Below are positions 3,003-24,188 of a stretch of 32,000 bases of DNA, one piece after another. The stretch's first letter is position 1. Each line of letters begins with the position of its first letter. Both the position numbers and the translations under genes were made by a program. This stretch comes from Cryobacterium sp. SO2. Its GTDB lineage: Bacteria; Actinomycetota; Actinomycetes; Actinomycetales; Microbacteriaceae. Below the pieces are notes generated by a model. It was not told the origin of the DNA and made no database searches. It saw only the letters and a program-made list of their open reading frames with translations. Location: assembly GCF_026151165.2 (NCBI RefSeq), contig NZ_CP117849.1, positions 547,258 through 579,257 of the forward strand. The letters are read 5' to 3'.

Positions 3003-3113
3003 CGCTGGTTGAGCTTGTCGAAGCCAGGTGACCCGGTCTCGCTGGTTGAGCTTGTCGAAACCAGGTGACCCAGTCTCGCTGGTTGAGCTTGTCGAAACCA
3101 GGTGACCCAGTCT
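3003..3113. repeat. family D tandem array, 3 x 37 bp (CGCTGGTTGAGCTTGTCGAAACCAGGTGACCCAGTCT)
   Basis: Units start at 3003, 3040 and 3077 with only 2-3 substitutions. Each unit holds a CTGGTT/AACCAG hairpin and a GGTGACC palindrome. Confidence 0.9.
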
Positions 3114-8664: not shown

Positions 8665-8734
8665 CAACTGTTCCCCATGCGGACATCTGCGCCCGGTGTG
8701 CCGGCACCATTTGTCCGCTTCGGCAACACTTGTG
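8665..8734. repeat. family A nested palindrome, copy 3
   Basis: CAACTGTTCCCCATGCGGACATCTGCGCCCGGTGTGCCGGCACCATTTGTCCGCTTCGGCAACACTTGTG. Confidence 0.85.
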
Positions 8735-8805
8735 CCCGGATGCCCGGATGCCCGGATGCCCGGATGCCCGGATGCCCGGATGCCCGGATGCCCGGATGCC
8801 CGGAC
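8734..8805. repeat. octanucleotide microsatellite (GCCCGGAT) x 8 plus one variant unit
   Basis: Perfect units start at 8734, 8742, 8750, 8758, 8766, 8774, 8782 and 8790. The variant GCCCGGAC is at 8798. Confidence 0.95.
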
Positions 8806-11938: not shown

Positions 11939-12717
11939 ATGGAGACCATCAGGGGTGCGACTGCGGCGCGGCGACTGGTTTTCGGCATCTTCGCCGTCAT
12001 AGCAGCGGTGCTCATCGTGCGCGCCGTGATCGCGTTCGGCGCGGCCTCCCCGCAGCTGTGGCTGATCGCCACGGTCGGGGTGCTCTGCGCCGGCCTGCTC
12101 GACATGCCGCGGTTCCGGCTCGGCCGGCTGCCGCACCAAACCCCCGTGATCAGCCTGCCCATCGTGGTGATGCTCGCCCTGGCGCCCGCATTCACCCCGT
12201 GGACCGCCCTGGGGCTCACCTGCCTGGGCGTGCTGGCCTTCGTGCTCGTGCGCAGCCGCCGCCCCGAGATCGCCCTCTTCGCCTCCGGCGTCGTCGGCGT
12301 CGGCGGCATCGCGGCGATCGGCGTGCAGACCGCGCTGCAGGCGGCCGGGCTGCCCCTCGCAGTGGTGGTGGCCGGCGCCGCGCTCGGCTACCAGGTCACG
12401 GTCATCGTCATCGAGGGCCTGCGCCGGCATTTCGACAAGCACGGCGAGATCACGGATGCGCCGTACTCCGTGCCCCGGGTGCTCGTCATCGTGCTCGGCT
12501 ACGCCCTGCTCTGCGGCTCCATCGCCGTGTGGCCGCATCCGTTCATCGAAATGCGCACCAGCACCATCGAGGTGGCGGCCACGCTCTTGCCGCTCGCCGT
12601 CGTCGGCACCGGCGCGATCCTCATCATCCGGGCCATGGCCATGCGCCGTCGCCTTGCCGGCGTCGTGGCCGGCGTGATCGACCTCAACGCCACCAACCAC
12701 TACACCCACGCCGGGGA
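11939..12717 (+). CDS. polytopic membrane domain; probable 5' part of the downstream GGDEF-EAL gene, interrupted by a frameshift
   Basis: ATG 11939. About 260 aa of convincing TM-helix sequence runs up to ...GVIDLNATNHYTHAGE. After about 12718 the same frame turns into Arg/Ser/Pro-rich nonsense, with its stop only at 13156. Confidence 0.6.
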
Positions 12718-14337
12718 GTGGTCACGCCCATCGTCATCGGCCCGGCCAGCACCAGCGCCGACCTCGCCACCGTGCTGCTGCACGCGGTCTCCGACACCAT
12801 CGGCGTCGAATCGGTCAGTATCCGCCACGACCCGGCCGGCCGCGGCGAGATCGACGCCCCGCTGGCGATCAGCGTGCTCGGCGGCCAGTACCTGGTGGCC
12901 CGCCGCGACGTCATGGACGTGCCGTTCACCCGCGACGACCGCCGCGCCCTCGAGGCCCTCGCGCACACCGCCGACGTGGTCTTCACCGCCAGGGAGAGCA
13001 TCGGCGGGCTCACCATCCGCGCCAACACCGACCCGCTCACCGGCCTGCCCAACTACGGCGCCTTCCAGGATGCCCTGGCCAACATCAACGACCACCGCGA
13101 CTACTCCGAGGCCCTCGCGGTGCTCTTCATCGACCTCGACGACTTCAAACGGATGAACGACCGTTACGGCCACCAGGCCGGCGACGAGATCCTCAGCGAA
13201 CTCGGTCGCCGCCTCAGCGCCGTGGTGCGCCCCTACGACGTCGTCGCCCGGGTCGGCGGCGACGAGTTCGTCGTCATCCTCACCCGGCTGTCCTCCCTCG
13301 CCGAGGCCAAGCTGCTCGCCGAACGCATCATGGAGGCCTCCGGCGAACCGCTCCCGGTGAGCGGCTCCGTGATCAACCCGATCCTCAGCATCGGCCTGGC
13401 CTACTCCGCGCACCGCGAGACGGATGTCAACCAGCTGCTCCGCGACGCCGACCGCAGCATGCTCGCCATCAAGAAGTCCCGCCGCCGGGGCGGCCCGGCC
13501 AATGAGAGCAGCATCAACATCTCCGGGCACCGTTCCTCGCAGATGAACGACATCGTGGCCCGCGCCATCGACGAGGACCTGCTCGAACTCGCGTTCCAGC
13601 CCATCGTCAGCTTGGTCACCGGTCAGATCTGGGCGTTCGAGGCCCTGGTGCGCTACACCGACCCGGAGCTCGGGCCGCTGTCGCCGCCGTCGCTCGTGGA
13701 GAAGGCCAAGAGCCTGGGCCGGCTCGACGCGCTCACCCGCCAGGTGGCGCTCAAGGCCATGGCCGCCGCCGCGGACTTCCGTCTGATCGAACCGCGCATC
13801 GTCTGCATGACCATCAACGTCGAAGCCGGCCAGATCCTGCCGCAGCGCGTCGGGTCCTTCGTGGAAGAGCTCGCCGAACGCTACCCCGGCATCTCCCTCT
13901 GCCTCGAACTCAACGAGCGGTCCGTCGCCCGGGTGTCCACTGCCGTGCGCGCGCAGGCCGACCACCTCCGCGACATCGGCATCATGATCGCCCTCGACGA
14001 CTACGGCTCCCAGGACTCCTCCGTCGACGCGTTGGTGCGGATGCCGATGGACATCCTCAAGATCGACAAGAGCCTCGTCGACGACCTCGACGACGTGCGC
14101 CAGCGCGAGGTGCTCACGGCGCTGCAGGGTTTCGGTGACAACCTCGAGTACTCGATGATCGTCGAAGGCGTCGAGAACGAGGCGATGGCCGACCACCTCA
14201 CCTCGCTCGGCATCCGCAGCGCCCAGGGCTTCCACTACGGGGTGCCGCGCAGCTTCGAGAAGACCCTGGCCCGCCTGGAGGAATTCGGCGCAGACGCCGT
14301 GCTGCCCGTGCGCGCCGCGTCTGAGCTGCCGCTCTAG
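12718..14337 (+). CDS. GAF-like / GGDEF / EAL protein (diguanylate cyclase-phosphodiesterase, 539 aa from GTG 12718)
   Basis: The frame differs from the upstream membrane part. An I-site RPYD sits 5 aa before GGDEF (VARVGGDEFVVIL). The EAL signatures FEALVRY, DDYGSQDSS, KIDKSLV, EGVE and QGFHYG are present. Confidence 0.85.
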   Translation: MVTPIVIGPASTSADLATVLLHAVSDTIGVESVSIRHDPAGRGEIDAPLAISVLGGQYLVARRDVMDVPFTRDDRRALEALAHTADVVFTARESIGGLTIRANTDPLTGLPNYGAFQDALANINDHRDYSEALAVLFIDLDDFKRMNDRYGHQAGDEILSELGRRLSAVVRPYDVVARVGGDEFVVILTRLSSLAEAKLLAERIMEASGEPLPVSGSVINPILSIGLAYSAHRETDVNQLLRDADRSMLAIKKSRRRGGPANESSINISGHRSSQMNDIVARAIDEDLLELAFQPIVSLVTGQIWAFEALVRYTDPELGPLSPPSLVEKAKSLGRLDALTRQVALKAMAAAADFRLIEPRIVCMTINVEAGQILPQRVGSFVEELAERYPGISLCLELNERSVARVSTAVRAQADHLRDIGIMIALDDYGSQDSSVDALVRMPMDILKIDKSLVDDLDDVRQREVLTALQGFGDNLEYSMIVEGVENEAMADHLTSLGIRSAQGFHYGVPRSFEKTLARLEEFGADAVLPVRAASELPL

Positions 14338-14354
14338 AACGCTAGGGTCGCACT

Positions 14355-16016
14355 ATGGTCGAGCACACTTCGAGGATGCCCCGTGCGGGCGTGCGTGAGC
14401 GCGTCGAGCGCAGCGTTTTCCTCTCCCAGCTGCTGCTCGCCGCTGCCGTGCTGCTCCTTGTGGGCGTCTCCGTGCTCACCCGGCCGGTCATGTTCGCCGA
14501 CCCGCTGTACTTCCTCGGCGTGATGATCATCTTCGCCGCCACCGGCATGGCCGCCGCGGTGCCGTGGCGCCGGTTCCCCAAGATCTACATCGTCGTGCTG
14601 CCGCTGCTGGACATCCTGGGCCTCACGGTGGCCCGCATCGCCGAACCCAATCTCGGTGTGAGCTTCCTGCTCGTGTTCCCGGTGATCTGGATGTCCACCC
14701 ACTTCGGCCAGGCCGGCGCCACCGGCAGCGTCGTCTTCTCCGCCCTGCTGCTCTGGGCCGGCCTGCCGATGCGGTTCCTCACCGACCCGCTCAACGCCAG
14801 CGGGTACGCCACCACCCAGGCGCCGCTGCTGGCCGTGGTGACGATCATGCTCGCCTTCGTCGCCTCCGTCACCTACACCTCCACCCGCCGCGGCCAGGCC
14901 CAGCGGGTGCTGCTCACCCAGCAGGCCGGTCTGTTCGAGACCGCGCTGCAGCGCTCGCGCCGCCAGGAGCAGACCCTCGACGAGATCTTCAATGCCGTGG
15001 ACTTCGGTGTGGTCGGTTACGACCGCGACGCCAGGGTCAACTTCATGAACCGGGCCCAGCGGATGCTGCTCAGCCGCTACGGCGTGAGCGACGGTATCGG
15101 CCTGGCCGAGATCGTCTTCAAGGAAGACGGCGTCACCCCCTACCCGGAGCACGAGCGGCCCACCCATCGCGCCATGCGCGGGGAGACCGTGGACAGGGTC
15201 ACCGTGTGGCTGGGCTCGCCCGACCAGCAGCAGTCCGCCATCCTCATCTCGGCCCGGCCCATCAACGACCCCAGCGGCCGCTTCGACGGCGGCGTCCTGG
15301 TCAGCCGTGACGTCACCGCCGAGGTGCGGGCGGTCAAGGCCAGGGACGACCTCGTCGCCTCCGTCTCGCACGAGCTGCGCACCCCGCTCACCTCGATTCT
15401 CGGCTACCTCGAGCTGGCCCTCGACGATGAGCGGGTCGACCCCGACACCCGGCGGATGCTCGAGATCGCGTCGAAGAACGCCGACCGGCTGCTCGAGATC
15501 GTGTCGGGCCTGCTCACCGCGGCGAGCGCATCCAACGAAGGCTTGGCGCTCAACCTGGAACCCTGCGACATCGCCGCCATCCTCACCGAGGCGGTGGAGT
15601 CCGCGGTGCCGCTGGCCTCGCAGCGCAGCATCCGCTTGGAACTGGGCCACCTGCCCGAGCTCAGCGTCGTCGCCGACGCGTTCCGGCTGCGCCAGGTGAT
15701 CGACAACGTGCTCTCCAATGCGATCAAGTACAACGTGGACTCCGGCACGGTGAGCGTGAGCATGCGGGAGGTCGCCTTCGGCCTCGAGGTGCGGGTCACC
15801 GACACAGGCCGGGGCATGAGCGAAGACGAACAGGGCAACCTCTTCGACAGGTTCTACCGCGCCGACTCGGTGCGCGGCTCCAGCGTGCACGGCACTGGAC
15901 TGGGCTTGAACATCAGCCGCGAGATCATGCGTGAGCACGGCGGAGACCTGCGGTTGGAATCCGTCAAGGGCAAGGGGACGACGGCGATCGCCACGCTCCC
16001 GGTGAACAGAGGTTGA
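14355..16016 (+). CDS. membrane PAS sensor histidine kinase (553 aa)
   Basis: N-terminal TM helices, a PAS-like segment, the H-box SVSHELRTPLTSILGYLEL, and ATPase motifs NAIKYN, DTGRGM and GTGLGLNISREI. It starts 17 bp after the upstream stop. Confidence 0.88.
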   Translation: MVEHTSRMPRAGVRERVERSVFLSQLLLAAAVLLLVGVSVLTRPVMFADPLYFLGVMIIFAATGMAAAVPWRRFPKIYIVVLPLLDILGLTVARIAEPNLGVSFLLVFPVIWMSTHFGQAGATGSVVFSALLLWAGLPMRFLTDPLNASGYATTQAPLLAVVTIMLAFVASVTYTSTRRGQAQRVLLTQQAGLFETALQRSRRQEQTLDEIFNAVDFGVVGYDRDARVNFMNRAQRMLLSRYGVSDGIGLAEIVFKEDGVTPYPEHERPTHRAMRGETVDRVTVWLGSPDQQQSAILISARPINDPSGRFDGGVLVSRDVTAEVRAVKARDDLVASVSHELRTPLTSILGYLELALDDERVDPDTRRMLEIASKNADRLLEIVSGLLTAASASNEGLALNLEPCDIAAILTEAVESAVPLASQRSIRLELGHLPELSVVADAFRLRQVIDNVLSNAIKYNVDSGTVSVSMREVAFGLEVRVTDTGRGMSEDEQGNLFDRFYRADSVRGSSVHGTGLGLNISREIMREHGGDLRLESVKGKGTTAIATLPVNRG

Positions 16017-16047
16017 GCGTGGTCTGCCACGCCCGACAGGGGGAAAA

Positions 16048-17220
16048 ATGCTGTTAGACGGACCGACCCTGCAAATGCTGAGCGGCCTGATCGTCATCCT
16101 GTGCGGGGTGTCATTCATCTTCAACACGGCGCTCAACCGCAACGACCCGCCCGGCCGGCTGTGGAGCCTGGCGTTCGTGGCGGGCATGATGGTGGCCGTC
16201 GGCTACGGCGTCTACATCGTCAGCGCGGATGCGTGGTGGTCGATCACCGTCGCCAACACCAGCTTGGTCATCGCCGTCGGCGCGCTCTGGAGCGGCTCCC
16301 GGGTGTACAACCTCCGCAGCTCCGGCTTCCTCGTAGTTGGCAGCCTCTCGGCGGTCGTGGGTGTCATCACCCTCGCGGCCGGCCCGGACGGCGGCGAATG
16401 GGCCGGAGCCGGCCCCCTCTGGCTGGTGGTGGCCGCGATGGGCGCCCTCGGCGGCTACGAGGCCCTCCGCGGCCGGTTGCGCCGCAACGTGAACGGACGC
16501 ATCCTCTCGATCGTGCTCTTCGTCGTGGCCGTGTTCTACGCGGCCCGGGCGGTCGAGTTCTTCGTCGCCGGCGTCGACAGCCCCACCTTCCTCGCCTACT
16601 TCGACTCCGGCACTACCTCCATCCTCAACATGGCGCTCATCGTCACGGCGTGCATCGCCGTGTCGATCCTGCGTGCAGAGGGTGTCGGCAGCAGCGCCGT
16701 CGGCGACATCACGGTGGGCATCCACTCCGCAGCCGGCGTGCTCTCGGCCACGTCGTTCCGGCAGGCCGCCGCCGACCACCTGGAGCGGGGCAAACGCTCC
16801 CAGCTCGGCCTGGCCCTGATCGGCGCCGACATCGACAACCTGCCCGAGATCAACACGGCGTTCGGCCGGTCCGCCGGCGACGAGGCCATCGCCCGCTTCG
16901 CCGACACGCTGCGCAGCAGTGCGCCGCTGCTCGCGCAGATCGGGCACCCGGCCGCCGGCCGGTTCTTCGTGCTCGCCGCGGTCGGCTCCGCCTCCGAGGC
17001 TCGCACGATCACCGAGCGCATCCAGAACGCCCTCGTGGACGGCCCGCTGGGGGAGTCGTACCAGATCCGCCTCACGGCGAGTTTCGGCATCGCGGACACC
17101 TTCGACCACGGCTACGACCTCGCCGAGCTCACCGAGGCGACGACCCTGGCGATCGGCATCGTCAAGCAGCGCGGCGGCAACGACATCGCCGTCGTCACCG
17201 AGGCCGCCAACCCGGTCTAG
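16048..17220 (+). CDS. membrane protein with a degenerate GGDEF domain (390 aa)
   Basis: ATG follows AGGGGGA. The first ~210 aa are polytopic, followed by a GGDEF fold (LALIGADIDNLPEINTAFGRSAGDEAI...). The signature reads AAGRFF (about 16951-16968) and no RxxD I-site is present. Confidence 0.8.
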   Translation: MLLDGPTLQMLSGLIVILCGVSFIFNTALNRNDPPGRLWSLAFVAGMMVAVGYGVYIVSADAWWSITVANTSLVIAVGALWSGSRVYNLRSSGFLVVGSLSAVVGVITLAAGPDGGEWAGAGPLWLVVAAMGALGGYEALRGRLRRNVNGRILSIVLFVVAVFYAARAVEFFVAGVDSPTFLAYFDSGTTSILNMALIVTACIAVSILRAEGVGSSAVGDITVGIHSAAGVLSATSFRQAAADHLERGKRSQLGLALIGADIDNLPEINTAFGRSAGDEAIARFADTLRSSAPLLAQIGHPAAGRFFVLAAVGSASEARTITERIQNALVDGPLGESYQIRLTASFGIADTFDHGYDLAELTEATTLAIGIVKQRGGNDIAVVTEAANPV

Positions 17221-17233
17221 CGATGCGCCCGCC

Positions 17234-17304
17234 CGCTGGTTGAGCGTGTCGAAACCCGGTGACCCGCCCGCTGGTTGAGCCTGTCGAAACCCGGTGAGCC
17301 GTCA
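17234..17304. repeat. family D tandem array, 2 x 35 bp (CGCTGGTTGAGC(G/C)TGTCGAAACCCGGTGA)
   Basis: Units start at 17234 and 17269, between convergent genes. Confidence 0.85.
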
Positions 17305-17315
17305 CGGCCCACGTT

Positions 17316-17392
17316 CGTCTCCGCGGCCTGTCCTTATCCCGGCGGCACGAGTTACAACGCGTGCCGCGGGGCCCAACGAGTGCCGCGAGGGC
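17316..17392. repeat. family E structured repeat, copy 1
   Basis: GTCTCCGCGGCC...CGGCGGCACGAGTTACAACGCGTGCCGCGGGGCCCAACGAGTGCCGCGAGGG aligns with 27331-27405. It contains a GGCACGnGTT/AACGCGTGCC hairpin. Confidence 0.75.
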
Positions 17393-17395
17393 CGG

Positions 17396-17995
17396 CTACT
17401 GCGCGATGGCGACCGTAAGCTGGTCGCTCGCGGTCTGCTTGGCGTAGGTGGACGACGTGGGCGTCGTCTGGATGAGCAACTCGAAGGTGAACGACAGCGT
17501 GACGCTCGTCGCATCCGCGTCGATGGCCGGCAGCACGAAGGTCTGCCCGTAGCTGTACGGCGCCTTCATGAAGTAGCCGTTGGCCAGATCGGACTCGTCC
17601 ACCAGCGGGGAAGGTGCGTCCAGAGCGCCTGTGGGCCCCGTGACGCCCGGAATGACGCTCACCTTGGACAGGTAGATGGCTTGGCCCTCGTCGGTGCCCA
17701 GCGCGGCGCTGACGGTGAAGCTGATCGGCTTGTTCGCGCCGGCCGTCCAGTCGCCCATGTTCAGCGTCGACGAGTAGTCCACGGTGAGGCCGGCGTCGCC
17801 GGCGGTGATGGTGTGCTGCGCGGAGCCGGTGGCCAGGTCGTTCACGATCGCCTTGAGCGTGGCCTTGGCGGTGGGCGTGGCGGTGGCCTCCTCGCTCAGG
17901 CCGGCCCAGGGCGCCTGCCCGCAGGCGGAGAGGCTGAGCGTCAAAGCGGCGGCAACGGTGAGCGCCGCGAGGCGGTTTCGGGTCGACGTCGGCAT
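17396..17995 (-). CDS. lipoprotein of unknown function (199 aa)
   Basis: ATG 17995 follows AAGGGGA. Signal peptide with lipobox LSLSAC. The mature part looks beta-rich and I recognise no family. The track start at 18040 is upstream read-through. Confidence 0.75.
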   Translation of the reverse strand: MPTSTRNRLAALTVAAALTLSLSACGQAPWAGLSEEATATPTAKATLKAIVNDLATGSAQHTITAGDAGLTVDYSSTLNMGDWTAGANKPISFTVSAALGTDEGQAIYLSKVSVIPGVTGPTGALDAPSPLVDESDLANGYFMKAPYSYGQTFVLPAIDADATSVTLSFTFELLIQTTPTSSTYAKQTASDQLTVAIAQ

Positions 17996-18065
17996 TGAAT
18001 TCCCCTTCTTCAGCACGGCGGGCGTTACTTCTAACGCCATTTCTTGAGCTTATCTTGTGAAAACC

Positions 18066-18096
18066 TTGACACTCGCAGGGGTCAAACCGCATAAAT
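18066..18096 (+). promoter_or_regulatory. candidate sigma-70-type promoter for the GT2 gene
   Basis: TTGACA (18066-18071) lies 18-19 nt before CATAAAT (18090-18096), in the only clearly AT-richer gap of the locus. Confidence 0.3.
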
Positions 18097-18114
18097 CCCT
18101 GCCAGAGTGGGGAT

Positions 18115-19560
18115 GTGAACGAGAGAAACCGCTACGTGAAGCCCGCGCCCGCCATTGACCCGGTGCTCGCTGCCTACGCCAATGAGTTCAACGAGATGGT
18201 TGAAGGCCTGCCCACCTTCCGCCCCACCATCGGTTGCATCATTCCCGCGTACAACGAGGCAGACTCCATCGCGGGGGTTCTCGACTCGCTCCTGGCGCAG
18301 ACGCGCCTCCCCGACGTCATCCACGTGGTGGTCAACAACACGACCGACAACACCATCGAAATCGCCAGCAAGTACGCCGGCCCGCACGAGGTCGTCACCG
18401 ACGGCATCATGCAGTTCACCGAGATCTTCGTGCACGACATCGGCGAGAACCCCGACAAGAAGGTCGGCGCGCTCAACTACGGCTACTCCCTCATCGAGGG
18501 ATGCGACTACCTCCTCGGCGTGGACGGCGACACCACTGCATCCACTAACGCCGTTGAGCAGCTCGAGGCCGAAATCGCCTCAGACTCCCGCGTCGGCGGC
18601 ATCTCGGCCATTTACAGCATCGACGACACCGTGATCCACGGCGTGATCGCCAGCTTCCTGATCTCCGGCCAGCGCGCCCAGTTCGCCGCCTTCAACATGC
18701 AGAACATGCTCCGCGGCCGCAACATGGCCGTGCTCGGCGGCCAGTTCTCGATCTTCGCCACCAAGGCGCTGCGCGAGGTCATGGTCGACAGCCACCAGGC
18801 CACCCCCTGGGTGAAGGACAGCGAGGTGGAGGACTCCCTGCTCTCGCTGCAGATCAAGAGCGCCGGCTACCTCACCAAGATCAGCGCCCAGGCCCGCGCC
18901 AACGTGGGCGGCATGACCACCCTCCGCGGCCTCGACGCCCAGCAGGTGAAGTGGAACTTCGGCGCCATCGAGCTGATGTGGCCGGGCCAGCGTGGTGACA
19001 CGAAGGGCCAGCCGTTCCACCCCAACCTGCGCCTGCGTTGGATCGAGAACTTCTCGATGGTGATCAACGTGGTCACCCGCGTGCTGTTCTTCATCCTGCT
19101 CGCCGCGTCGCTGTCCATCGGAGCGTTCGTCTTCAGCCCGGTCTGGCTCATCCCGCCGGCCGTGGCCCTGCTGCTGAACTTCCGTACCGCGATGTCGATG
19201 AAGAACCGCAACGGCAAGGACATCTTCTTCGCCCTGGGCTTCTTCCCCGCCGAGATCTACATGTGGGTGCGAATCGGCCACTTCCTCCGGGCCTGGACCA
19301 AGTTCGCCAGCAACAAGCAGGTCGACAACTGGGCCGAGCAGGCCAAGGCCGAGCGCGGCTCGGGCAACGCCTACCTCGTTCCGCTGCTGGTGGCCGTCGG
19401 CTTCTCCGCCGCCCTGGTCTTCATCTGGCTGCAGCTGCCCGTCGTCATCCAGTCCACCGTCCTCTGGATCGGCTGGCCGATCCTCGGTGTCACCACGGTG
19501 CTGCAGACGCTCACCATGTTCTTCACCCTCGTCAAGCGTCACCACGGCTACAAGGTGTGA
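18115..19560 (+). CDS. processive family-2 glycosyltransferase / polysaccharide synthase (481 aa)
   Basis: GT-A motifs IIPAYNE, VDGD and VEDS, plus the Q(Q/R)xRW-like QQVKW. Four to five C-terminal TM helices follow. The architecture resembles PgaC/NodC/CslA-type synthases. No PilZ domain is evident. Confidence 0.85.
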   Translation: MNERNRYVKPAPAIDPVLAAYANEFNEMVEGLPTFRPTIGCIIPAYNEADSIAGVLDSLLAQTRLPDVIHVVVNNTTDNTIEIASKYAGPHEVVTDGIMQFTEIFVHDIGENPDKKVGALNYGYSLIEGCDYLLGVDGDTTASTNAVEQLEAEIASDSRVGGISAIYSIDDTVIHGVIASFLISGQRAQFAAFNMQNMLRGRNMAVLGGQFSIFATKALREVMVDSHQATPWVKDSEVEDSLLSLQIKSAGYLTKISAQARANVGGMTTLRGLDAQQVKWNFGAIELMWPGQRGDTKGQPFHPNLRLRWIENFSMVINVVTRVLFFILLAASLSIGAFVFSPVWLIPPAVALLLNFRTAMSMKNRNGKDIFFALGFFPAEIYMWVRIGHFLRAWTKFASNKQVDNWAEQAKAERGSGNAYLVPLLVAVGFSAALVFIWLQLPVVIQSTVLWIGWPILGVTTVLQTLTMFFTLVKRHHGYKV

Positions 19561-19913
19561 GTGTCCACATCGAGGCCACCGCGCTGCGGGCCCTCCTCAC
19601 CCAGATGGGTGGGGACAACGAGATGCAACGACGCTTCGTCCACGACTTCGTGCACCTCTGGCGCAGTCGCACCCAACGGCTGGAGACAGCCCTCGCGTTC
19701 CCGGATGCCGAAGAGGCGCACGTTGTGCTCCTGAGCATCCGCTCGAGCAGCACCATGGTCGGCGCCGTCACGGTGGAGGCCACCGCGGCGATGATGCACG
19801 ACGCGCTGCGCGACGGCGACATCGCCGGGTCGGCCCGGCACATCGGCCGCCTCAACGAGGTCGGCGAGAAGGCCTGCCACGACCTCGCGGTGATGTTCGC
19901 CCTCCAGCGCTAG
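19557..19913 (+). CDS. Hpt-like four-helix protein lacking the canonical phospho-His (118 aa)
   Basis: GTG 19557 overlaps the GT2 stop (GTGTGA). By eye the sequence aligns to the Hpt pattern ...D..EA...aHxLKGSaaxlGA as DAEEAHVVLLSIRSSSTMVGA, with Leu at the His position and a His 4 residues upstream. Confidence 0.55.
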   Translation: MSVHIEATALRALLTQMGGDNEMQRRFVHDFVHLWRSRTQRLETALAFPDAEEAHVVLLSIRSSSTMVGAVTVEATAAMMHDALRDGDIAGSARHIGRLNEVGEKACHDLAVMFALQR

Positions 19914-19938
19914 CCGCCCCCGCCTCCCGCTGGGTTTC

Positions 19939-20335
19939 CGCTGGTCGAGCTTGTCGAGACCCCGTGACGTGCGTATGTGTCGCGAGTTCGGCTCGCCGGG
20001 TCTCGACGGGCTCGACCAGCGGAGGGGTCACCTCCCGCGCAGATGGCCGCGACGTGCTTGCGGTTCGCCCCCACGTCGCTGGTCGAGCTTGCCGAGACCC
20101 CGTGACGTGCGTGTGTGTCGCGAGTTCGGCTCGCCGGGTCTCGACGGGCTCGACCAGCGGAGGGGTCACCTCCCGCGCAGATCGCCGCGACGTGCCTGCG
20201 GTTCGAGCCCATCTCGCTGGTCGAGCTTGTCGAGACCCCGTGACGTGCGCGCGTGTCGCGAGTTCGGCTCACCGGGTCTCGACAGGCTCGACCAGCGGAG
20301 GGGTCACCTCCCGCGCAGAAGGCCGCGCTCAACGG
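19939..20335. repeat. composite family D tandem array, 3 x 138 bp
   Basis: Units start at 19939, 20077 and 20215 and are nearly identical. Each holds 23-nt inverted arms CGCTGGTCGAGCTTGTCGAGACC / GGTCTCGACGGGCTCGACCAGCG and a GGAGG..CCTCC hairpin. Confidence 0.92.
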
Positions 20336-20339
20336 CAAA

Positions 20340-20380
20340 CATCCGCCCCTCGTGATCGAAACGAAGGGCGGATGCTTTCA
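20340..20380. terminator. hairpin terminator candidate between convergent operons
   Basis: CATCCGCCC (20340-20348) pairs with GGGCGGATG (20366-20374). It is followed by CTTTC on the plus strand and TTTGCC on the minus strand. Confidence 0.45.
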
Positions 20381-20401
20381 AATGAATCGGGGCGGCAGCG
20401 C

Positions 20402-21517
20402 CTAGTAGACCTCGCGGCCGGCCTCATCGGATGCGGCCAGCCGGTAGCCGACCCCGCGCACGGTCTCGAGCCAGCGCGGTGAGGTGAGGCTGTCACCGAG
20501 CTTGCGGCGCAGGTTGCTCAAGTGCGCCTCCACGGCCCGCTTGTCGGCCTCGTTCACGTAATACGAGGTCACATAGCTCTCGCCGCGCAGGAGCAGGGCC
20601 AGGTCGGCCTTGGAGCGCACCCGACGCTTGGACTCGAGCAGCGCGGCCAGCAGGTCGAATTCCGTGCGGGTGAGGTCGAGCTCGGTGGACCCGAGCACGG
20701 CCAGGCGCATGTCGTTGCTCAACCGCAGACCGTTGTGTTCCATCCAGTCCTCGGCGCGTCCATCGCCGTAGGCCGAGTCGGATGGCTCGGCGGTGGCGAC
20801 CGGCATGGGTACCGTTACCGAGACCGGCACGGAGGAGAGCGCGGGGATTCCGTCGATGTTGACGGCCGGGGTGGCCGGCACATACGGCGGGATGTAAACG
20901 GGCTCCACCGCGGCCGGCGCGACCGGAGCTGCTGCGGGTGCCTCGACCGGCGGGGCTGCCACGGCCTCGGGCGCAACCTGGGCCACGGGAACCGGAGCAA
21001 CGGGTGCCGGGGCAACGGGCGCAAGGGCGACAGGCGCGGCCGCAACCGGCGCGGGCGCTGGGGGAGCGGCATAAACAGCGGGCGCCGCGGCCGGCTCGGT
21101 CGCCGGCTCGAAGTCGGGCTCGCCGGACAGCGGCATCCGCGGGCGACGCAGCATGGCGTCGATGCGGGCGCGCAGTTCGCGCGGCCGGAACGGCTTGGTG
21201 AGGTAGTCGTCCGCGCCGGCCTCGAGGCCCTGCAGGGTGTCGATCTCCTCGTCGCGTGCGGTCAGCATCACCAGGTACGTGGAGCTGAAGGCTCGGATGC
21301 GCTTGGCGGTTTCGAAACCGTCCATGCCGGGCATGCTCACATCGAGCGTGGTCACAATGGGGTCGTACGCGCGCACAGCGCGCACCCCATCGAGGCCGTT
21401 ACTCGTGGCAATGGCGTCGAATCCGGCCTGTGTGAGCACCGCTTCGAGCAAATGGCGGATGTCGGCATCGTCTTCGATGATCACCGCGACCCTACGTGTT
21501 TCTCCAGACGCTGACAT
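20402..21517 (-). CDS. OmpR-family response regulator with a ~130-aa Pro/Ala/Val-rich interdomain linker (371 aa)
   Basis: ATG 21517. The receiver domain reads VAVIIEDDADIRHLL...LDVSMPGMDG...YLTKPF. The C-terminal winged helix reads LTRTEFDLLAALL...VEAHLSNLRRKL...VRGVGYRL. The track ORF extends into GH6 read-through. Confidence 0.88.
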   Translation of the reverse strand: MSASGETRRVAVIIEDDADIRHLLEAVLTQAGFDAIATSNGLDGVRAVRAYDPIVTTLDVSMPGMDGFETAKRIRAFSSTYLVMLTARDEEIDTLQGLEAGADDYLTKPFRPRELRARIDAMLRRPRMPLSGEPDFEPATEPAAAPAVYAAPPAPAPVAAAPVALAPVAPAPVAPVPVAQVAPEAVAAPPVEAPAAAPVAPAAVEPVYIPPYVPATPAVNIDGIPALSSVPVSVTVPMPVATAEPSDSAYGDGRAEDWMEHNGLRLSNDMRLAVLGSTELDLTRTEFDLLAALLESKRRVRSKADLALLLRGESYVTSYYVNEADKRAVEAHLSNLRRKLGDSLTSPRWLETVRGVGYRLAASDEAGREVY

Positions 21518-21564
21518 ACCTGAGCATCTTACGGGATCTGTGTATCCGCTGCGTAAACGGTGTG

Positions 21565-22566
21565 TTACCAGCCGGCTGAGGCGGCAAGCTGTAGTGCGCG
21601 CTCTTCCCACCACTCGCCGGCCTTGGGGCCGTTGTTGCAGGTGCCGTCGCTCTCGCCCGGCTCCTTGATCCATAGGTTGGCGTCGCGCAGGCCGCCGTCG
21701 GTGGTGACCTCGGCGGTCGTGCCCAGCGCGCGGCCGGGCGGGTTGCACCAGTCGCCGTTGCTGCCCACCCCGTTGCGGGAGGTGTCGACGATGAAGTGCG
21801 CACCGTTGGTGAGAGCGGAGACGGCCTCGCCGAACGCCTGCTCGGCGGGGGAGTCGTTGTAGTTGGAGACGTTGGTGGCGAAGCCGCGCACGTTCTGCAC
21901 GCCCACCTGGTTGAGCAGGTCGGCCACGACCGCGGGCTTCAGCCAGTCGGAGTGGCCGGCGTCGAGGTACACGGTGGCGATGGTGTTCGAGAAGGTGGCG
22001 ATGTCGCCCTGGATCTGCGTCACGCGCTCGGCCACGTTGCCGCACTCCTGGGCCAGCGCCAGGGCATCCGGCTCGAGAATCACGACGGAGGGCCGGCTGG
22101 ACAAGGCCGAGGCGATCGACGAGACCCAGGCCTCGTACTCCCCGGCGGGCAGCCCGCCGGCGGAGTACTGCTTGCAGTCGCGGTCGGGGATGCCGTAGAT
22201 CACGAACACGGGCATCTGGCCGGCGTCTTTCGCCGCATCCGCTATCGCGGCCACGTCGGCCTCGACGGTGTCGGCCGGAAACTTCTCCGGCAGCAACCAG
22301 ATCGCGGATGGCTGCTCGGCGAGCTTGGCCAGCGTGGCGGTGTCCTCGGCGCCGGGGGCGTCCTTCGCTGCGGCGGCCGCGGCCACGTTGGCGGTGGAGG
22401 CCGGGTTGTTGTAGAAGGAGACCCCGGCGAGGGGGTTGTCGGTGGTGCTGGCGGGCGCGACGGCCACCATGGCATAAGAACCGACGAAGAGGCCGAGTAC
22501 AACGATGGGCGCGGCTAGGGCGATCATGCCCAGGGAGAGGCCCAAACGGCGTCCAGTGGAGTCCAT
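21565..22566 (-). CDS. glycoside hydrolase family 6 (endoglucanase-like), N-terminal membrane anchor (333 aa)
   Basis: GH6 blocks IPDRDC, EPDAL, YLDAGHSDW, VDTSRNG and WIKEPGESDG. A single N-terminal hydrophobic helix. It lies 47 bp upstream of the regulator on the same strand. Confidence 0.88.
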   Translation of the reverse strand: MDSTGRRLGLSLGMIALAAPIVVLGLFVGSYAMVAVAPASTTDNPLAGVSFYNNPASTANVAAAAAAKDAPGAEDTATLAKLAEQPSAIWLLPEKFPADTVEADVAAIADAAKDAGQMPVFVIYGIPDRDCKQYSAGGLPAGEYEAWVSSIASALSSRPSVVILEPDALALAQECGNVAERVTQIQGDIATFSNTIATVYLDAGHSDWLKPAVVADLLNQVGVQNVRGFATNVSNYNDSPAEQAFGEAVSALTNGAHFIVDTSRNGVGSNGDWCNPPGRALGTTAEVTTDGGLRDANLWIKEPGESDGTCNNGPKAGEWWEERALQLAASAGW

Positions 22567-24133: not shown

Positions 24134-24188
24134 CGCTGGTCGGGCCTGTCGAGACCTCGCGACAGGATCTCGACAAGCTCGATCAGCG
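24134..24188. repeat. family D single palindromic copy
   Basis: CGCTGGTCGGGCCTGTCGAGA ... TCTCGACAAGCTCGATCAGCG, immediately after the mqo stop. Confidence 0.8.

What the first reader, a model, noticed from the sequence alone, without database searches (positions are those of the whole stretch)
11939..22566. Candidate c-di-GMP / phosphorelay-controlled beta-glycan exopolysaccharide locus with an unusual part list
Nine adjacent genes make up the locus.
- An apparent operon: an active-looking GGDEF-EAL (I-site, GGDEF and EAL all intact), a PAS histidine kinase and a membrane degenerate GGDEF, with gaps of 17 and 31 bp.
- A divergent lipoprotein.
- A processive GT2 synthase coupled to an Hpt-like protein.
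- Convergent to these, a membrane-anchored GH6 glucanase followed by an OmpR-type regulator.
The pairing of synthase and GH6 recalls the Streptomyces cslA-glxA-cslZ arrangement (cellulose-synthase-like GT2 plus GH6 endoglucanase). Here there is no GlxA-type oxidase and no PilZ domain on the synthase. Signalling proteins surround the enzymes instead. How c-di-GMP would reach the synthase is not evident. The degenerate GGDEF protein or the pseudo-Hpt could be adaptor candidates.
Basis: inference. Interest (0 to 1): 0.7.

Follow-up and report, generated by a model that had tools for sequence, protein, structure and literature searches.

The report
Conserved actinobacterial cellulose-synthase-like gene cluster
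This gene cluster, conserved across many Microbacteriaceae, pairs a stripped-down cellulose-synthase-like enzyme with a glucan-cutting enzyme, a lipoprotein, a 'dead' phosphotransfer protein and its own two-component switch, so it is probably an uncharacterised way for these Gram-positive bacteria to make and control a surface beta-glucan.

Summary
There are eight genes, not nine. The GGDEF-EAL gene is one gene split by a 1-nt deletion near 12713; it is intact in eight other Cryobacterium species.

The conserved unit is HK–degenerate GGDEF, a divergent lipoprotein, GT2(–pseudo-Hpt), and GH6–OmpR-type regulator. In 59 related loci with full flanks, the regulator is present in 59, GH6 in 56, the lipoprotein in 56, the kinase in 55 and the degenerate GGDEF in 50. 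GGDEF-EAL is present in only 17.

The C-terminal half of the GT2 matches only BcsA cellulose synthases in the PDB, with TED, QxxRW and the gating loop aligned. It has no PilZ domain and no N-terminal TM helices, and it is far below the PgaC cutoff. The GH6 is closest to M. tuberculosis CelA1, with its catalytic motifs intact. The Hpt-like protein overlaps the GT2 stop by 4 bp and has an invariant Leu where the phospho-His belongs.

New here: a triple 11-bp-phased TTGAG repeat lies upstream of the GT2, and 68 of its 73 occurrences in 3.07 Mb sit there. It is probably the regulator's operator.

Two-component control is well supported. Direct c-di-GMP control is weak: there is no I-site, no riboswitch, and the GGDEF-EAL is not conserved. 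This is a new variant of synthase-dependent β-glucan systems.

The parts
11939..12712 (+). N-terminal polytopic membrane module of the GGDEF-EAL gene, read in the first frame up to the frameshift.
   Evidence: GC3 frame. No Pfam hit. It is 36-58% identical to the N-termini of single-ORF orthologues of 805-844 aa in eight Cryobacterium species.
12715..14337 (+). Linker plus GGDEF (I-site RPYD, GGDEF) plus EAL part of the same gene, in the second frame. A 1-nt deletion near 12713 separates it from the membrane module.
   Evidence: Pfam GGDEF 9e-41 and EAL 2e-45. Frame switch. Deletion relative to six orthologues.
14355..16016 (+). Sensor histidine kinase with an N-terminal TM bundle, PAS, HisKA (SHELRTPL) and HATPase_c. 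It has no receiver domain.
   Evidence: Pfam. Present in 55 of 59 related loci. Below the cutoffs of all named NCBIfam kinases.
16048..17220 (+). Membrane protein (about 6 TM helices) with a catalytically degenerate GGDEF domain (AGRFF) and no RxxD I-site.
   Evidence: Pfam GGDEF 1e-11. Motif conservation across 62 orthologues. Present in 50 of 59 loci.
17396..17995 (-). Lipoprotein (lipobox LSLSAC) with an Ig-like beta-sandwich domain. It is divergent from the GT2. An alternative upstream ATG lies at 18040.
   Evidence: No Pfam hit. Homologues are about 199 aa hypothetical proteins. AlphaFold model with pLDDT 86.6. Only generic ApaG/arrestin-like sandwich matches. Present in 56 of 59 loci. 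In Rhodoglobus and Nocardioides it lies directly after the GT2.
18043..18070 (+). Triple direct repeat with 11-bp phasing: CTTGAGcttat CTTGTGaaaac CTTGAC. It is the candidate operator of the OmpR-type regulator. It overlaps a TTGACA hexamer and lies 45-72 nt upstream of the GT2 start.
   Evidence: It is the only match in the window, with zero mismatches. It is present in 52 of 81 GT2 upstream regions. 68 of 73 occurrences in 3.07 Mb (both strands) of related loci lie within 260 nt upstream of the GT2.
18115..19560 (+). GT2 beta-glycan synthase (481 aa). It has a cytosolic GT-A domain with PAYNE, DGD, VED and QQVKW motifs, followed by about 4 TM helices plus interface helices and a WxxQxK gating-loop-like segment. 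It has no PilZ domain and no N-terminal TM helices.
   Evidence: Pfam PF00535, PF13632 and PF13641. The C-terminal half hits only BcsA in the PDB (E about 1e-6), with TED, QxxRW and FxVTxK aligned. It scores 42 bits against a 422-bit cutoff for PgaC_IcaA. It is 67-90% identical across the 80 loci examined.
19557..19913 (+). Pseudo-Hpt (118 aa), translationally coupled to the GT2 by a 4-bp GTGA overlap. An invariant Leu replaces the phospho-accepting His in the motif VVLLSIRSSSTMxGA.
   Evidence: Pfam Hpt hit in 15 of 17 orthologues. Profile alignment to Hpt structure 7C1I places Leu on the His of AHSFKGGSSNMGA. The 4-bp overlap occurs in 43 of 80 loci. The family comprises 112 clusters, all stand-alone.
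19939..20327 (.). A 138-bp x 2.8 tandem array made of inverted pairs of a 23-bp REP-like element. It lies between the convergent operons and is a likely bidirectional transcription stop or insulator.
   Evidence: TRF. 13 copies of the 23-mer in the window against 0 expected. Hairpin of -66.9 kcal/mol, z -6.2.
20402..21514 (-). OmpR/PhoB-family response regulator: REC (EDD, phospho-acceptor Asp in TLDVSMPG, T, K), an approximately 150-aa Pro/Ala-rich linker, and a winged-helix DNA-binding domain.
   Evidence: Pfam Response_reg 4.5e-26 and Trans_reg_C 7e-17. Present in 59 of 59 loci. The wHTH domain is nearly invariant. Orthologues are mostly 277-378 aa (full range 132-594, shortest ones contig-truncated), so the long linker is a family trait.
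21565..22566 (-). GH6 glucanase with a single N-terminal TM or signal anchor. It lies upstream of the regulator on the same strand (50-bp gap).
   Evidence: Pfam Glyco_hydro_6 1.3e-57. Best PDB match is M. tuberculosis Cel6/CelA1 (1UOZ, 2e-71), with DRDC, EPDAL and PGESDG conserved. Present in 56 of 59 loci.

Best explanation
This is a conserved Microbacteriaceae (also Sanguibacter and Nocardioides) synthase-dependent locus for a beta-1,4-glucan (cellulose-like) surface or extracellular polymer.

The 481-aa GT2 is a minimal BcsA-type synthase. It polymerises a UDP-sugar, most likely UDP-glucose, and passes the chain through its C-terminal TM bundle.

Outside the membrane, the Ig-like lipoprotein handles or anchors the emerging chain, and the membrane-anchored CelA1-like GH6 trims, releases or proofreads it. 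This is the role BcsZ and CslZ play in their systems.

Output is set mainly at transcription. The PAS kinase phosphorylates the OmpR-type regulator, which binds head-to-tail to the three 11-bp-phased TTGAG repeats at the divergent lipoprotein/GT2 promoter.

The pseudo-Hpt is made stoichiometrically with the synthase. It cannot carry phosphate. It most likely acts as a receiver-domain-binding adaptor or decoy that couples synthase abundance or state to the regulator, or as a cytosolic regulatory subunit standing where PilZ sits in BcsA.

The membrane degenerate GGDEF is a non-catalytic partner of the kinase. The GGDEF-EAL gene is a lineage-specific neighbour and is broken in this assembly.

What is shown: domain identities, synteny, motif conservation, and the location specificity of the repeat.

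What is inferred: the sugar and linkage, translocation, regulator-repeat binding, and the roles of the pseudo-Hpt, lipoprotein and degenerate GGDEF.
For: Synteny:
- GT2 relatives occur in 424 species genomes.
- In 59 loci with full flanks, the regulator is present in 59, GH6 in 56, lipoprotein in 56, kinase in 55 and degenerate GGDEF in 50. All four core partners occur together in 52.

GT2:
- It is as conserved as the neighbouring asd and ask genes (about 75% identity between genera).
- Its profile residues 241-468 match only BcsA among PDB chains (E 5e-7 to 1e-6).
- In that alignment, VED aligns to TED, Q-x-x-K-W to QRGRW, and WaeQaK to the FAVTAK gating loop.

GH6:
- It is closest to the M. 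tuberculosis CelA1 cellulase, and the catalytic motifs are intact.

Operator:
- The triple 11-bp direct repeat occurs once in the window, 45-72 nt upstream of the GT2 start.
- 68 of 73 occurrences in 3.07 Mb lie upstream of the GT2, in 52 of 81 loci.
- The regulator's winged-helix domain is nearly invariant.

Pseudo-Hpt:
- A 4-bp overlap with the GT2 stop occurs in 43 of 80 loci.
- Leu sits at the phospho-His position.

Literature:
- Nothing comparable was found in the literature searches.
Against: - The product was not determined. GH6 association argues for beta-1,4-glucan, but GH6 also includes mixed-linkage glucanases.
- The GT2 lacks the N-terminal TM helices (BcsA TM1-4) that help form the channel in every solved processive synthase. 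Translocation may therefore need oligomerisation or a partner, or may not occur.
- The AlphaFold model of the GT2 was unusable (pLDDT 47.5).
- No BcsB-like partner was found.
- Regulator-repeat binding and kinase-regulator cognacy are inferred only from co-location.
- The pseudo-Hpt was not detected in Agromyces, Glaciihabitans, Microbacterium or Curtobacterium loci, so it is not essential to the core.
- The lipoprotein fold match is generic.
Confidence: 0.55

Rival explanations
1. One reading: c-di-GMP gates the synthase post-translationally. The GGDEF-EAL makes or degrades c-di-GMP. The membrane degenerate GGDEF (or the pseudo-Hpt) acts as the c-di-GMP receptor that activates the PilZ-less GT2, as PelD, PssE and BcsE do.
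For: - A degenerate membrane GGDEF is co-conserved in 50 of 59 loci.
- In Cryobacterium a GGDEF-EAL with intact I-site, GGDEF and EAL motifs lies 17 bp upstream of the kinase.
- In Herbiconiux and Cnuibacter a GGDEF-EAL borders the other side of the locus.
- There is precedent from established knowledge: PelD and Listeria PssE are degenerate GGDEF receptors for PilZ-less synthases.
Against: - In all orthologues the degenerate domain has (A/G)GRF and no RxxD at the I-site position. That site is what binds c-di-GMP in PelD, PssE and BcsE.
- The GGDEF-EAL is absent from 42 of 59 loci. It stays next to asd when the locus is inverted, so it may be linked to that side.
- It is frameshifted in this genome.
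- There is no PilZ domain and no c-di-GMP riboswitch.
- No known c-di-GMP motif is evident in the pseudo-Hpt.
Confidence: 0.2
2. The GT2 is not a polymer-exporting synthase. It is a membrane-anchored glycosyltransferase that adds sugars to a lipid-linked or cell-wall acceptor on the cytoplasmic face (a minimal cellulose-synthase-like fold, as in PcManGT). The GH6 and the two-component system serve cell-wall remodelling.
For: - There are no N-terminal TM helices, only about 4 TM helices after the GT domain.
- Among the best N-terminal profile hits in the PDB is PcManGT (6YV7, 1e-11), a membrane GT2 with such a minimal fold.
- The very high conservation (67-90%) suggests a core envelope function.
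Against: - TED, QxxKW and gating-loop equivalents are all conserved.
- The TM region aligns with BcsA TM5-8 and not with non-processive GT2s.
- Tight linkage to a secreted or anchored GH6 beta-glucanase (56 of 59 loci) implies an extracytoplasmic beta-glucan substrate.
Confidence: 0.15
3. It is a PNAG (poly-beta-1,6-GlcNAc) synthase of the PgaC/IcaA type, as JGI's automatic annotation names many homologues.
For: - JGI names such as 'biofilm PGA synthesis N-glycosyltransferase PgaC' appear on many homologues.
- TIGR03937 PgaC_IcaA is the best NCBIfam hit.
- One distant relative (about 30% identity) is fused to a polysaccharide deacetylase.
Against: - The TIGR03937 score is 42 bits against a 422-bit cutoff.
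- There is no PgaB/IcaB deacetylase, no PgaD/IcaD and no dispersin-type hydrolase in the locus.
- The conserved hydrolase is GH6, a beta-1,4-glucanase family.
- The C-terminal half matches BcsA only.
Confidence: 0.07

Closest known systems
Streptomyces CslA-GlxA-CslZ(-LpmP) apical cellulose system
   Same: Both are actinobacterial. Both have a BcsA-related GT2 next to a GH6 glucanase with an intact catalytic Asp motif and no carbohydrate-binding module. Both are probably a cell-surface beta-1,4-glucan made by a synthase-dependent route (PMC9040799; bioRxiv 10.1101/2023.11.20.567928).
   Different: - There is no GlxA radical copper oxidase, which is essential for CslA activity, and no LPMO or stomatin-like genes in the window.
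- This GT2 is shorter, lacks N-terminal TM helices and has no PilZ elements.
- The GH6 here is TM-anchored and closest to Mtb CelA1.
- This locus adds an Ig-like lipoprotein, a pseudo-Hpt, a dedicated kinase/regulator pair and a degenerate GGDEF.
Proteobacterial BcsA-BcsB-BcsZ cellulose synthase
   Same: The catalytic core is shared. TED, QxxRW, the gating loop and TM5-8 align with R. sphaeroides and E. coli BcsA, which are the only PDB proteins matching the C-terminal half. An endoglucanase is encoded alongside.
   Different: There is no PilZ domain, so no known c-di-GMP gate. BcsA TM1-4 are absent. There is no BcsB. The hydrolase is GH6 rather than GH8. Regulation appears to be transcriptional, through a two-component system.
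Listeria Pss (PssC GT2, PssE degenerate-GGDEF receptor, PssZ hydrolase) and Pel (PelF/PelD) systems
   Same: A PilZ-less synthase or glycosyltransferase is accompanied by a membrane protein with an inactive GGDEF domain and a dedicated glycoside hydrolase.
   Different: PssE and PelD keep the RxxD I-site that binds c-di-GMP. The degenerate GGDEF here lacks it in all 62 orthologues. It is also co-transcribed with a histidine kinase rather than with the synthase.
Mycobacterium tuberculosis CelA1 (Rv0062, GH6)
   Same: It is the closest solved relative of the GH6 here (E 2e-71), with all catalytic motifs aligned.
   Different: In mycobacteria no partner cellulose synthase has been identified (PMC8892547). 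Here the CelA1-like enzyme is genetically tied to a BcsA-like GT2.
Pseudo-Hpt proteins such as Arabidopsis AHP6 (from established knowledge)
   Same: Both have an Hpt fold that has lost the phospho-accepting His and can therefore only bind partners, not relay phosphate.
   Different: AHP6 is a eukaryotic competitive inhibitor within a true multistep phosphorelay. Here there is no hybrid kinase or relay, and the gene is translationally coupled to a polysaccharide synthase.

Membership tests
BcsA-type processive GT2 beta-glycan synthases | GT-A domain with DxD, TED and Q(Q/R)xRW motifs followed by a TM bundle with a gating loop | tested here: met
   DGD, VED, QQVKW (R to K) and WAEQAK are invariant or nearly invariant. 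They align with BcsA TED, QRGRW and FAVTAK over BcsA residues 338-567.
BcsA-type processive GT2 beta-glycan synthases | N-terminal TM helices that contribute to the translocation channel (BcsA TM1-4) | tested here: not met
   No hydrophobic segment occurs before residue 323. The GT domain starts at about residue 36.
Bcs cellulose synthase operon (c-di-GMP dependent) | C-terminal PilZ domain on the synthase, and a BcsB partner | tested here: not met
   No PilZ or BcsB Pfam hit in any locus protein. The GT2 ends right after the last TM helix.
Streptomyces CslA-GlxA-CslZ cluster | GH6 glucanase adjacent to the cellulose-synthase-like GT2 | tested here: met
   GH6 lies within 3.5 kb of the GT2 in 56 of 59 loci.
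Streptomyces CslA-GlxA-CslZ cluster | GlxA radical copper oxidase co-transcribed with the synthase | tested here: not met
   Pfam scans of all genes in 3280-28986 show no oxidase or kelch-type protein.
Streptomyces CslA-GlxA-CslZ cluster | GT2 orthologous to CslA (SCO2836) | not tested
PgaC/IcaA PNAG synthases | Score at or above the TIGR03937 cutoff, with PgaD/IcaD and a deacetylase in the operon | tested here: not met
   42.4 bits against a cutoff of 422.3. No deacetylase or PgaD-like gene is present.
Hpt phosphotransfer proteins | Hpt four-helix-bundle domain | tested here: inconclusive
   The window protein scores 21.0 bits against a gathering score of 24.6. 15 of 17 orthologues hit Pfam Hpt, best 1.6e-5. 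The profile hits Hpt structure 7C1I at E 0.0055. No structure model was made.
Hpt phosphotransfer proteins | Phospho-accepting His in the HxxKG motif | tested here: not met
   An invariant Leu59 aligns with the His of AHSFKGGSSNMGA in 7C1I.
Active diguanylate cyclases / I-site c-di-GMP receptors (PelD, PssE, BcsE type), tested for the 16048-17220 protein | A GG(D/E)EF active site, or a retained RxxD I-site five residues upstream | tested here: not met
   (A/G)GRF(F/Y/L) stands in place of GG(D/E)EF. The I-site position is LLAQ, VMAA, TTSL and similar in 62 orthologues.
OmpR/PhoB response regulators | REC domain with an acidic pocket and phospho-acceptor Asp, plus a C-terminal winged helix | tested here: met
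   Response_reg 91.6 bits and Trans_reg_C 61.7 bits, both above gathering score. EDD, D in LDVSMPG, T and K were read from the translation. It is atypical only in the roughly 150-aa linker.
GH6 glycoside hydrolases | GH6 domain above gathering score, with catalytic acid Asp (DRDC) and the EPD and GESDG motifs | tested here: met
   196 bits against a gathering score of 27. The motifs align with Mtb Cel6.

The most novel reading that the evidence does not exclude
This is the cellulose synthase system of the Micrococcales, and possibly a template for finding the missing synthase in other Actinobacteria that carry CelA1-type GH6 enzymes. In it, c-di-GMP/PilZ gating is replaced by phosphorylation logic. 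A synthase-coupled pseudo-Hpt docks the receiver domain of the locus's long-linker OmpR-type regulator, or docks onto the gating-loop face of the GT2. Synthase activity and transcription of its own promoter (the triple TTGAG repeat) then feed back on each other. That would be a new way of controlling a processive glycan synthase.
Probability: 0.15. Interest if true: 0.85.

Novelty: new variant of a known kind. Interest (0 to 1): 0.62.

Why it matters
Cellulose-type synthases are well understood in Proteobacteria (BcsA, PilZ, c-di-GMP) and are only beginning to be understood in Streptomyces (CslA and GlxA). How other Gram-positive Actinobacteria make beta-glucans is largely unknown, and no cellulose synthase has been identified in mycobacteria.

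This locus is conserved in hundreds of species of soil, plant-associated and cryosphere Microbacteriaceae. The GT2 is about as conserved as aspartate-pathway housekeeping genes, so the polymer probably matters for the envelope or for surface life.

The locus offers three things:
- A minimal BcsA-like synthase without PilZ or N-terminal TM helices, useful for asking what is the smallest translocating synthase.
- A genetically linked CelA1-type GH6.
- A testable regulatory circuit: a kinase, a regulator, a defined operator, a pseudo-Hpt and a dead GGDEF.

Tried and rejected
- AlphaFold of the GT2 from a 9-sequence alignment gave pLDDT 47.5, so no fold search was run on it. Profile searches of the PDB were used instead.
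- The fold search of the lipoprotein model returned only generic Ig-like sandwiches: ApaG, arrestin and MD-2. No function could be assigned.
- A single-sequence PDB search with the pseudo-Hpt found nothing. The profile was needed.
- The N-terminal membrane modules of the GGDEF-EAL, the kinase and the degenerate GGDEF show no mutual similarity. The idea of a shared sensor domain was dropped.
- I looked for GT2-Hpt or GT2-PilZ fusions among distant relatives. None was found.
- Names of distant GT2 relatives (Kineococcus, Planctomonas, Lactobacillus phages) gave no characterised member.
- An Rfam scan for a c-di-GMP riboswitch or any RNA family gave no hit.
- The sigma-70 consensus scan found no promoter in 17150-20450. 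The promoter assignment is therefore only my reading of the sequence, with two candidates: TTGACA at 18067 with CATAAAT at 18090, or a leaderless arrangement with CAGAGT at 18103.
- My first repeat patterns used the wrong 12-bp spacing and were discarded.
- Literature searches for this gene combination in Microbacteriaceae or Micrococcales found nothing relevant.
- One regulator-versus-downstream-kinase BLAST was uninformative.

Full report
**Source and gene calls**

The GT2 in the window is 100% identical to a protein of Cryobacterium sp. SO2, on a 4.10-Mb contig. The DNA is about 70% G+C, so raw ORF lists are unreliable. I called genes by third-position GC, translation and Pfam.

The locus lies between housekeeping genes:
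- Upstream: dnaX, recR, aspartate kinase and aspartate-semialdehyde dehydrogenase.
- Downstream: malate:quinone oxidoreductase, an MFS transporter and a radical-SAM protein.

**Checking the observation**

- GGDEF+EAL at 12715-14337, with RPYD-x5-GGDEF and the EAL, ELNE, DDYG and EGVE motifs.
- A TM-PAS-HisKA-HATPase kinase at 14355-16016.
- A TM plus degenerate GGDEF (AGRFF) at 16048-17220.
- Gaps of exactly 17 and 31 bp.
- A divergent lipoprotein at 17396-17995.
- The GT2 at 18115-19560.
- An Hpt-like ORF at 19557-19913, overlapping the GT2 stop by 4 bp.
- A convergent TM-anchored GH6 at 21565-22566, followed by an OmpR-type regulator at 20402-21514.

Two corrections are needed.
- There are eight genes, not nine. 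The coding frame of the first gene switches near 12713.
- In eight other Cryobacterium species the orthologue is a single ORF of 805-844 aa. A DNA alignment with six of them shows a 1-nt deletion in this window.
- The GGDEF-EAL gene is therefore frameshifted here. It is either a pseudogene or a homopolymer assembly error.

**Is it a unit?**

A scan of one genome per GTDB species found relatives of the GT2 in 424 species. I examined the 80 best loci. They cover Cryobacterium, Agreia, Leifsonia, Okibacterium, Glaciihabitans, Cnuibacter, Herbiconiux, Plantibacter, Agromyces, Pseudolysinimonas, Lacisediminihabitans, Rhodoglobus, Compostimonas, Microbacterium, Curtobacterium, Sanguibacter and Nocardioides.

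A tblastn search with all window proteins shows the same arrangement almost everywhere: kinase and degenerate GGDEF, then the lipoprotein on the opposite strand, then GT2(-Hpt), then regulator and GH6 on the opposite strand.

Among the 59 loci with full 10-kb flanks:

| Gene | Loci with it within 7 kb of the GT2 |
|---|---|
| Regulator | 59 |
| GH6 | 56 |
| Lipoprotein | 56 |
| Kinase | 55 |
| Degenerate GGDEF | 50 |
| Pseudo-Hpt (by tblastn) | 35 |
| GGDEF-EAL | 17 |
| Kinase + lipoprotein + regulator + GH6 together | 52 |

The GGDEF-EAL always sits beside asd. In Herbiconiux and Cnuibacter the whole GT2 locus is inverted relative to ask-asd-GGDEF/EAL. Its linkage may therefore be to that flank rather than to the locus.

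The GT2 is 67-90% identical across these genera. This is similar to asd and ask, and far more conserved than its partners at 30-60%.

**The synthase**

Pfam assigns the GT2 to PF00535, PF13632 and PF13641. NCBIfam gives only 42 bits to PgaC_IcaA against a 422-bit cutoff, and nothing to any cellulose synthase model.

A single-sequence PDB search found only generic N-terminal GT-A matches. I then built a profile that included 28-45%-identical relatives from the 50%-representative search.
- Its N-terminal half hit many GT-A enzymes.
- Its C-terminal half (positions 241-468) hit only cellulose synthase BcsA from R. sphaeroides (E 5e-7) and E. coli (E 0.017). Hyaluronan and chitin synthases were the other membrane synthases on the list.
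- A profile of the C-terminal half alone returned BcsA only.

The printed alignment puts VED on BcsA's TED, Q-x-x-K-W on QRGRW, and WAEQAK on the FAVTAK gating loop. It then runs through the TM helices up to the point where BcsA's PilZ domain starts.

So the catalytic and translocation core is BcsA-like, and the protein ends where PilZ would begin. Hydropathy shows no TM segment before residue 323, so BcsA TM1-4 have no counterpart. This is unusual for a translocating synthase and is the main structural caveat.

AlphaFold from a shallow alignment failed (pLDDT 47.5). Distant relatives are all uncharacterised. None carries a PilZ or Hpt fusion.

**The hydrolase**

The GH6 scores 196 bits on Pfam. 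Its closest solved relative is M. tuberculosis Cel6/CelA1 (E 2e-71). The DRDC, EPDAL and PGESDG catalytic motifs are aligned.

It has one N-terminal hydrophobic helix and no carbohydrate-binding module. By analogy with BcsZ and CslZ (PMC9040799), a dedicated beta-1,4-glucanase next to the synthase points to a beta-1,4-glucan product. This is an inference, not a measurement.

**The pseudo-Hpt**

In 43 of 80 loci, an ORF of about 116-163 aa starts 4 bp before the GT2 stop. The orthologues share the motif VVLLSIRSSSTMxGA. Fifteen of 17 hit Pfam Hpt.

The family profile aligns to an Hpt crystal structure (7C1I) with the invariant Leu on the His of AHSFKGGSSNMGA. It is therefore an Hpt fold that cannot be phosphorylated.

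The family is small (112 clusters), restricted to this lineage, and always stand-alone. The kinase has no receiver domain, so no His-Asp-His-Asp relay exists here. The system is an ordinary two-component pair plus a decoy-like Hpt made together with the synthase.

The pseudo-Hpt was not detected in Agromyces, Glaciihabitans, Microbacterium or Curtobacterium loci, so it is an accessory part.

**Regulation**

The regulator has the full REC signature and a winged helix that is nearly invariant across genera. The two are separated by a Pro/Ala-rich linker of about 150 aa, and this long linker is a family trait.

In the 119-bp lipoprotein/GT2 intergenic region I noticed three direct repeats with 11-bp phasing: CTTGAGcttat CTTGTGaaaac CTTGAC (18043-18070). 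This is the architecture of OmpR/PhoB operators, from established knowledge.
- The pattern occurs once in the window.
- A relaxed triple pattern is present within 200 nt upstream of the GT2 in 52 of 81 loci.
- In 3.07 Mb (both strands) of related loci it occurs 73 times, and 68 of those lie within 260 nt upstream of the GT2 on its strand.
- A stricter two-half-site pattern is present in 57 of the 81 upstream regions.
- By eye, many of the loci missed by both patterns carry degenerate versions.
- Microbacterium uses CTTGCG instead of CTTGAG.

This is the strongest evidence for how the locus is controlled. It implies transcriptional control of the GT2, and probably of the divergent lipoprotein, by the locus's own regulator. 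Binding itself is inferred.

The consensus promoter scan found nothing. Two readings are possible from the sequence:
- TTGACA at 18067 with CATAAAT at 18090.
- A leaderless arrangement with a conserved CAGAGT hexamer 7 nt upstream of the GTG start.

**The c-di-GMP question**

In all 62 orthologues, the conserved degenerate GGDEF has (A/G)GRF at the active site and no RxxD at the I-site position. That removes the feature by which PelD, PssE and BcsE bind c-di-GMP.

No PilZ domain was found and no riboswitch. The only c-di-GMP-metabolising gene is a variable neighbour and is broken here. Direct c-di-GMP gating is therefore possible but weakly supported. I give it about 0.2.

**The lipoprotein**

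The lipoprotein has no Pfam family. The AlphaFold model is confident (pLDDT 86.6) and shows an Ig-like beta-sandwich. Its PDB neighbours are generic.

Its linkage to the GT2 is very tight. It is divergent in most genera and lies immediately downstream of the GT2 in Rhodoglobus and Nocardioides. This suggests an extracytoplasmic partner of the synthase.

**Comparison with known systems and novelty**

The locus works most like the BcsA/BcsZ and CslA/CslZ systems. It fails the defining tests for membership in either: it has no PilZ, no BcsB and no GlxA. It also fails the PgaC test.

I found no description of this gene set in the searchable literature. A 2021 review states that no mycobacterial BcsA homologue is known, although CelA1-type cellulases and cellulose are present in mycobacteria.

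I rate it a new variant of a known kind, namely synthase-dependent beta-glucan systems. Four parts are new:
- A minimal PilZ-less synthase without N-terminal TM helices.
- A synthase-coupled pseudo-Hpt.
- A long-linker OmpR-type regulator with a defined triple-repeat operator.
- A kinase-linked dead GGDEF without an I-site.

Interest is 0.62.

Noticed in passing
window 3003-3099, 17234-17291, 19939-20297, 24134-24188: A 23-bp REP-like element (CGCTGGTYGAGCNTGTCGARACC) occurs 13 times in the window against 0 expected. In the cases checked against a gene call (17234, 19939-20297, 24134) it lies just after a gene end. It appears as direct repeats or as inverted pairs. Three inverted pairs form a 138-bp x 2.8 tandem array between the convergent pseudo-Hpt and regulator genes. 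One pair folds into a hairpin of about 28 bp (-66.9 kcal/mol, z -6.2).
   Followed up: partly
window 12705-12720: A single-base deletion at GCCGGGGAGT|GG, relative to six Cryobacterium orthologues, splits the GGDEF-EAL gene into two frames. It could be a real pseudogene or a homopolymer sequencing error in the SO2 assembly.
   Followed up: yes
window 20800-21150 (regulator residues about 125-275): The OmpR-type regulator carries a Pro/Ala/Val-rich, probably disordered linker of about 150 aa between REC and the winged helix. Orthologues in other genera are mostly 277-378 aa, so long linkers are typical of this regulator family.
   Followed up: partly
window 8733-8804: A perfect 8-bp x 9 microsatellite (TGCCCGGA) lies in the recR-ask intergenic region.
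   Followed up: no
window 18021-18038: A short inverted repeat (GGCGTTAC-TTCT-AACGCC) lies immediately upstream of the triple direct repeat in the lipoprotein/GT2 intergenic region. Other Cryobacterium loci have a different palindrome at the same place, for example GCAGCACGTGCTGC. It might be a second operator or a 5'-UTR element of the lipoprotein mRNA.
   Followed up: no
window 18103-18115 and the homologous positions in L001-L063: A conserved CAGAGT/CAGACT hexamer ends 6-9 nt before the GT2 start codon in many genera. This is compatible with a -10 element and a leaderless or very short-leader GT2 mRNA.
   Followed up: no
loci L016, L020, L021, L032-L039, L056, L059, L062, L063: In Herbiconiux and Cnuibacter the whole GT2 locus is inverted relative to ask-asd-GGDEF/EAL compared with Cryobacterium. 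In Leifsonia, Okibacterium, Compostimonas and Agromyces the locus follows asd directly, with no GGDEF-EAL. The chromosomal position next to recR-ask-asd is old and the GGDEF-EAL is a variable junction gene.
   Followed up: partly
P0337 cluster (distant GT2 relatives): Homologues of the GT2 at about 27% identity are encoded by large Lactobacillus phages (Lb338-1, Lbab1, T25).
   Followed up: no
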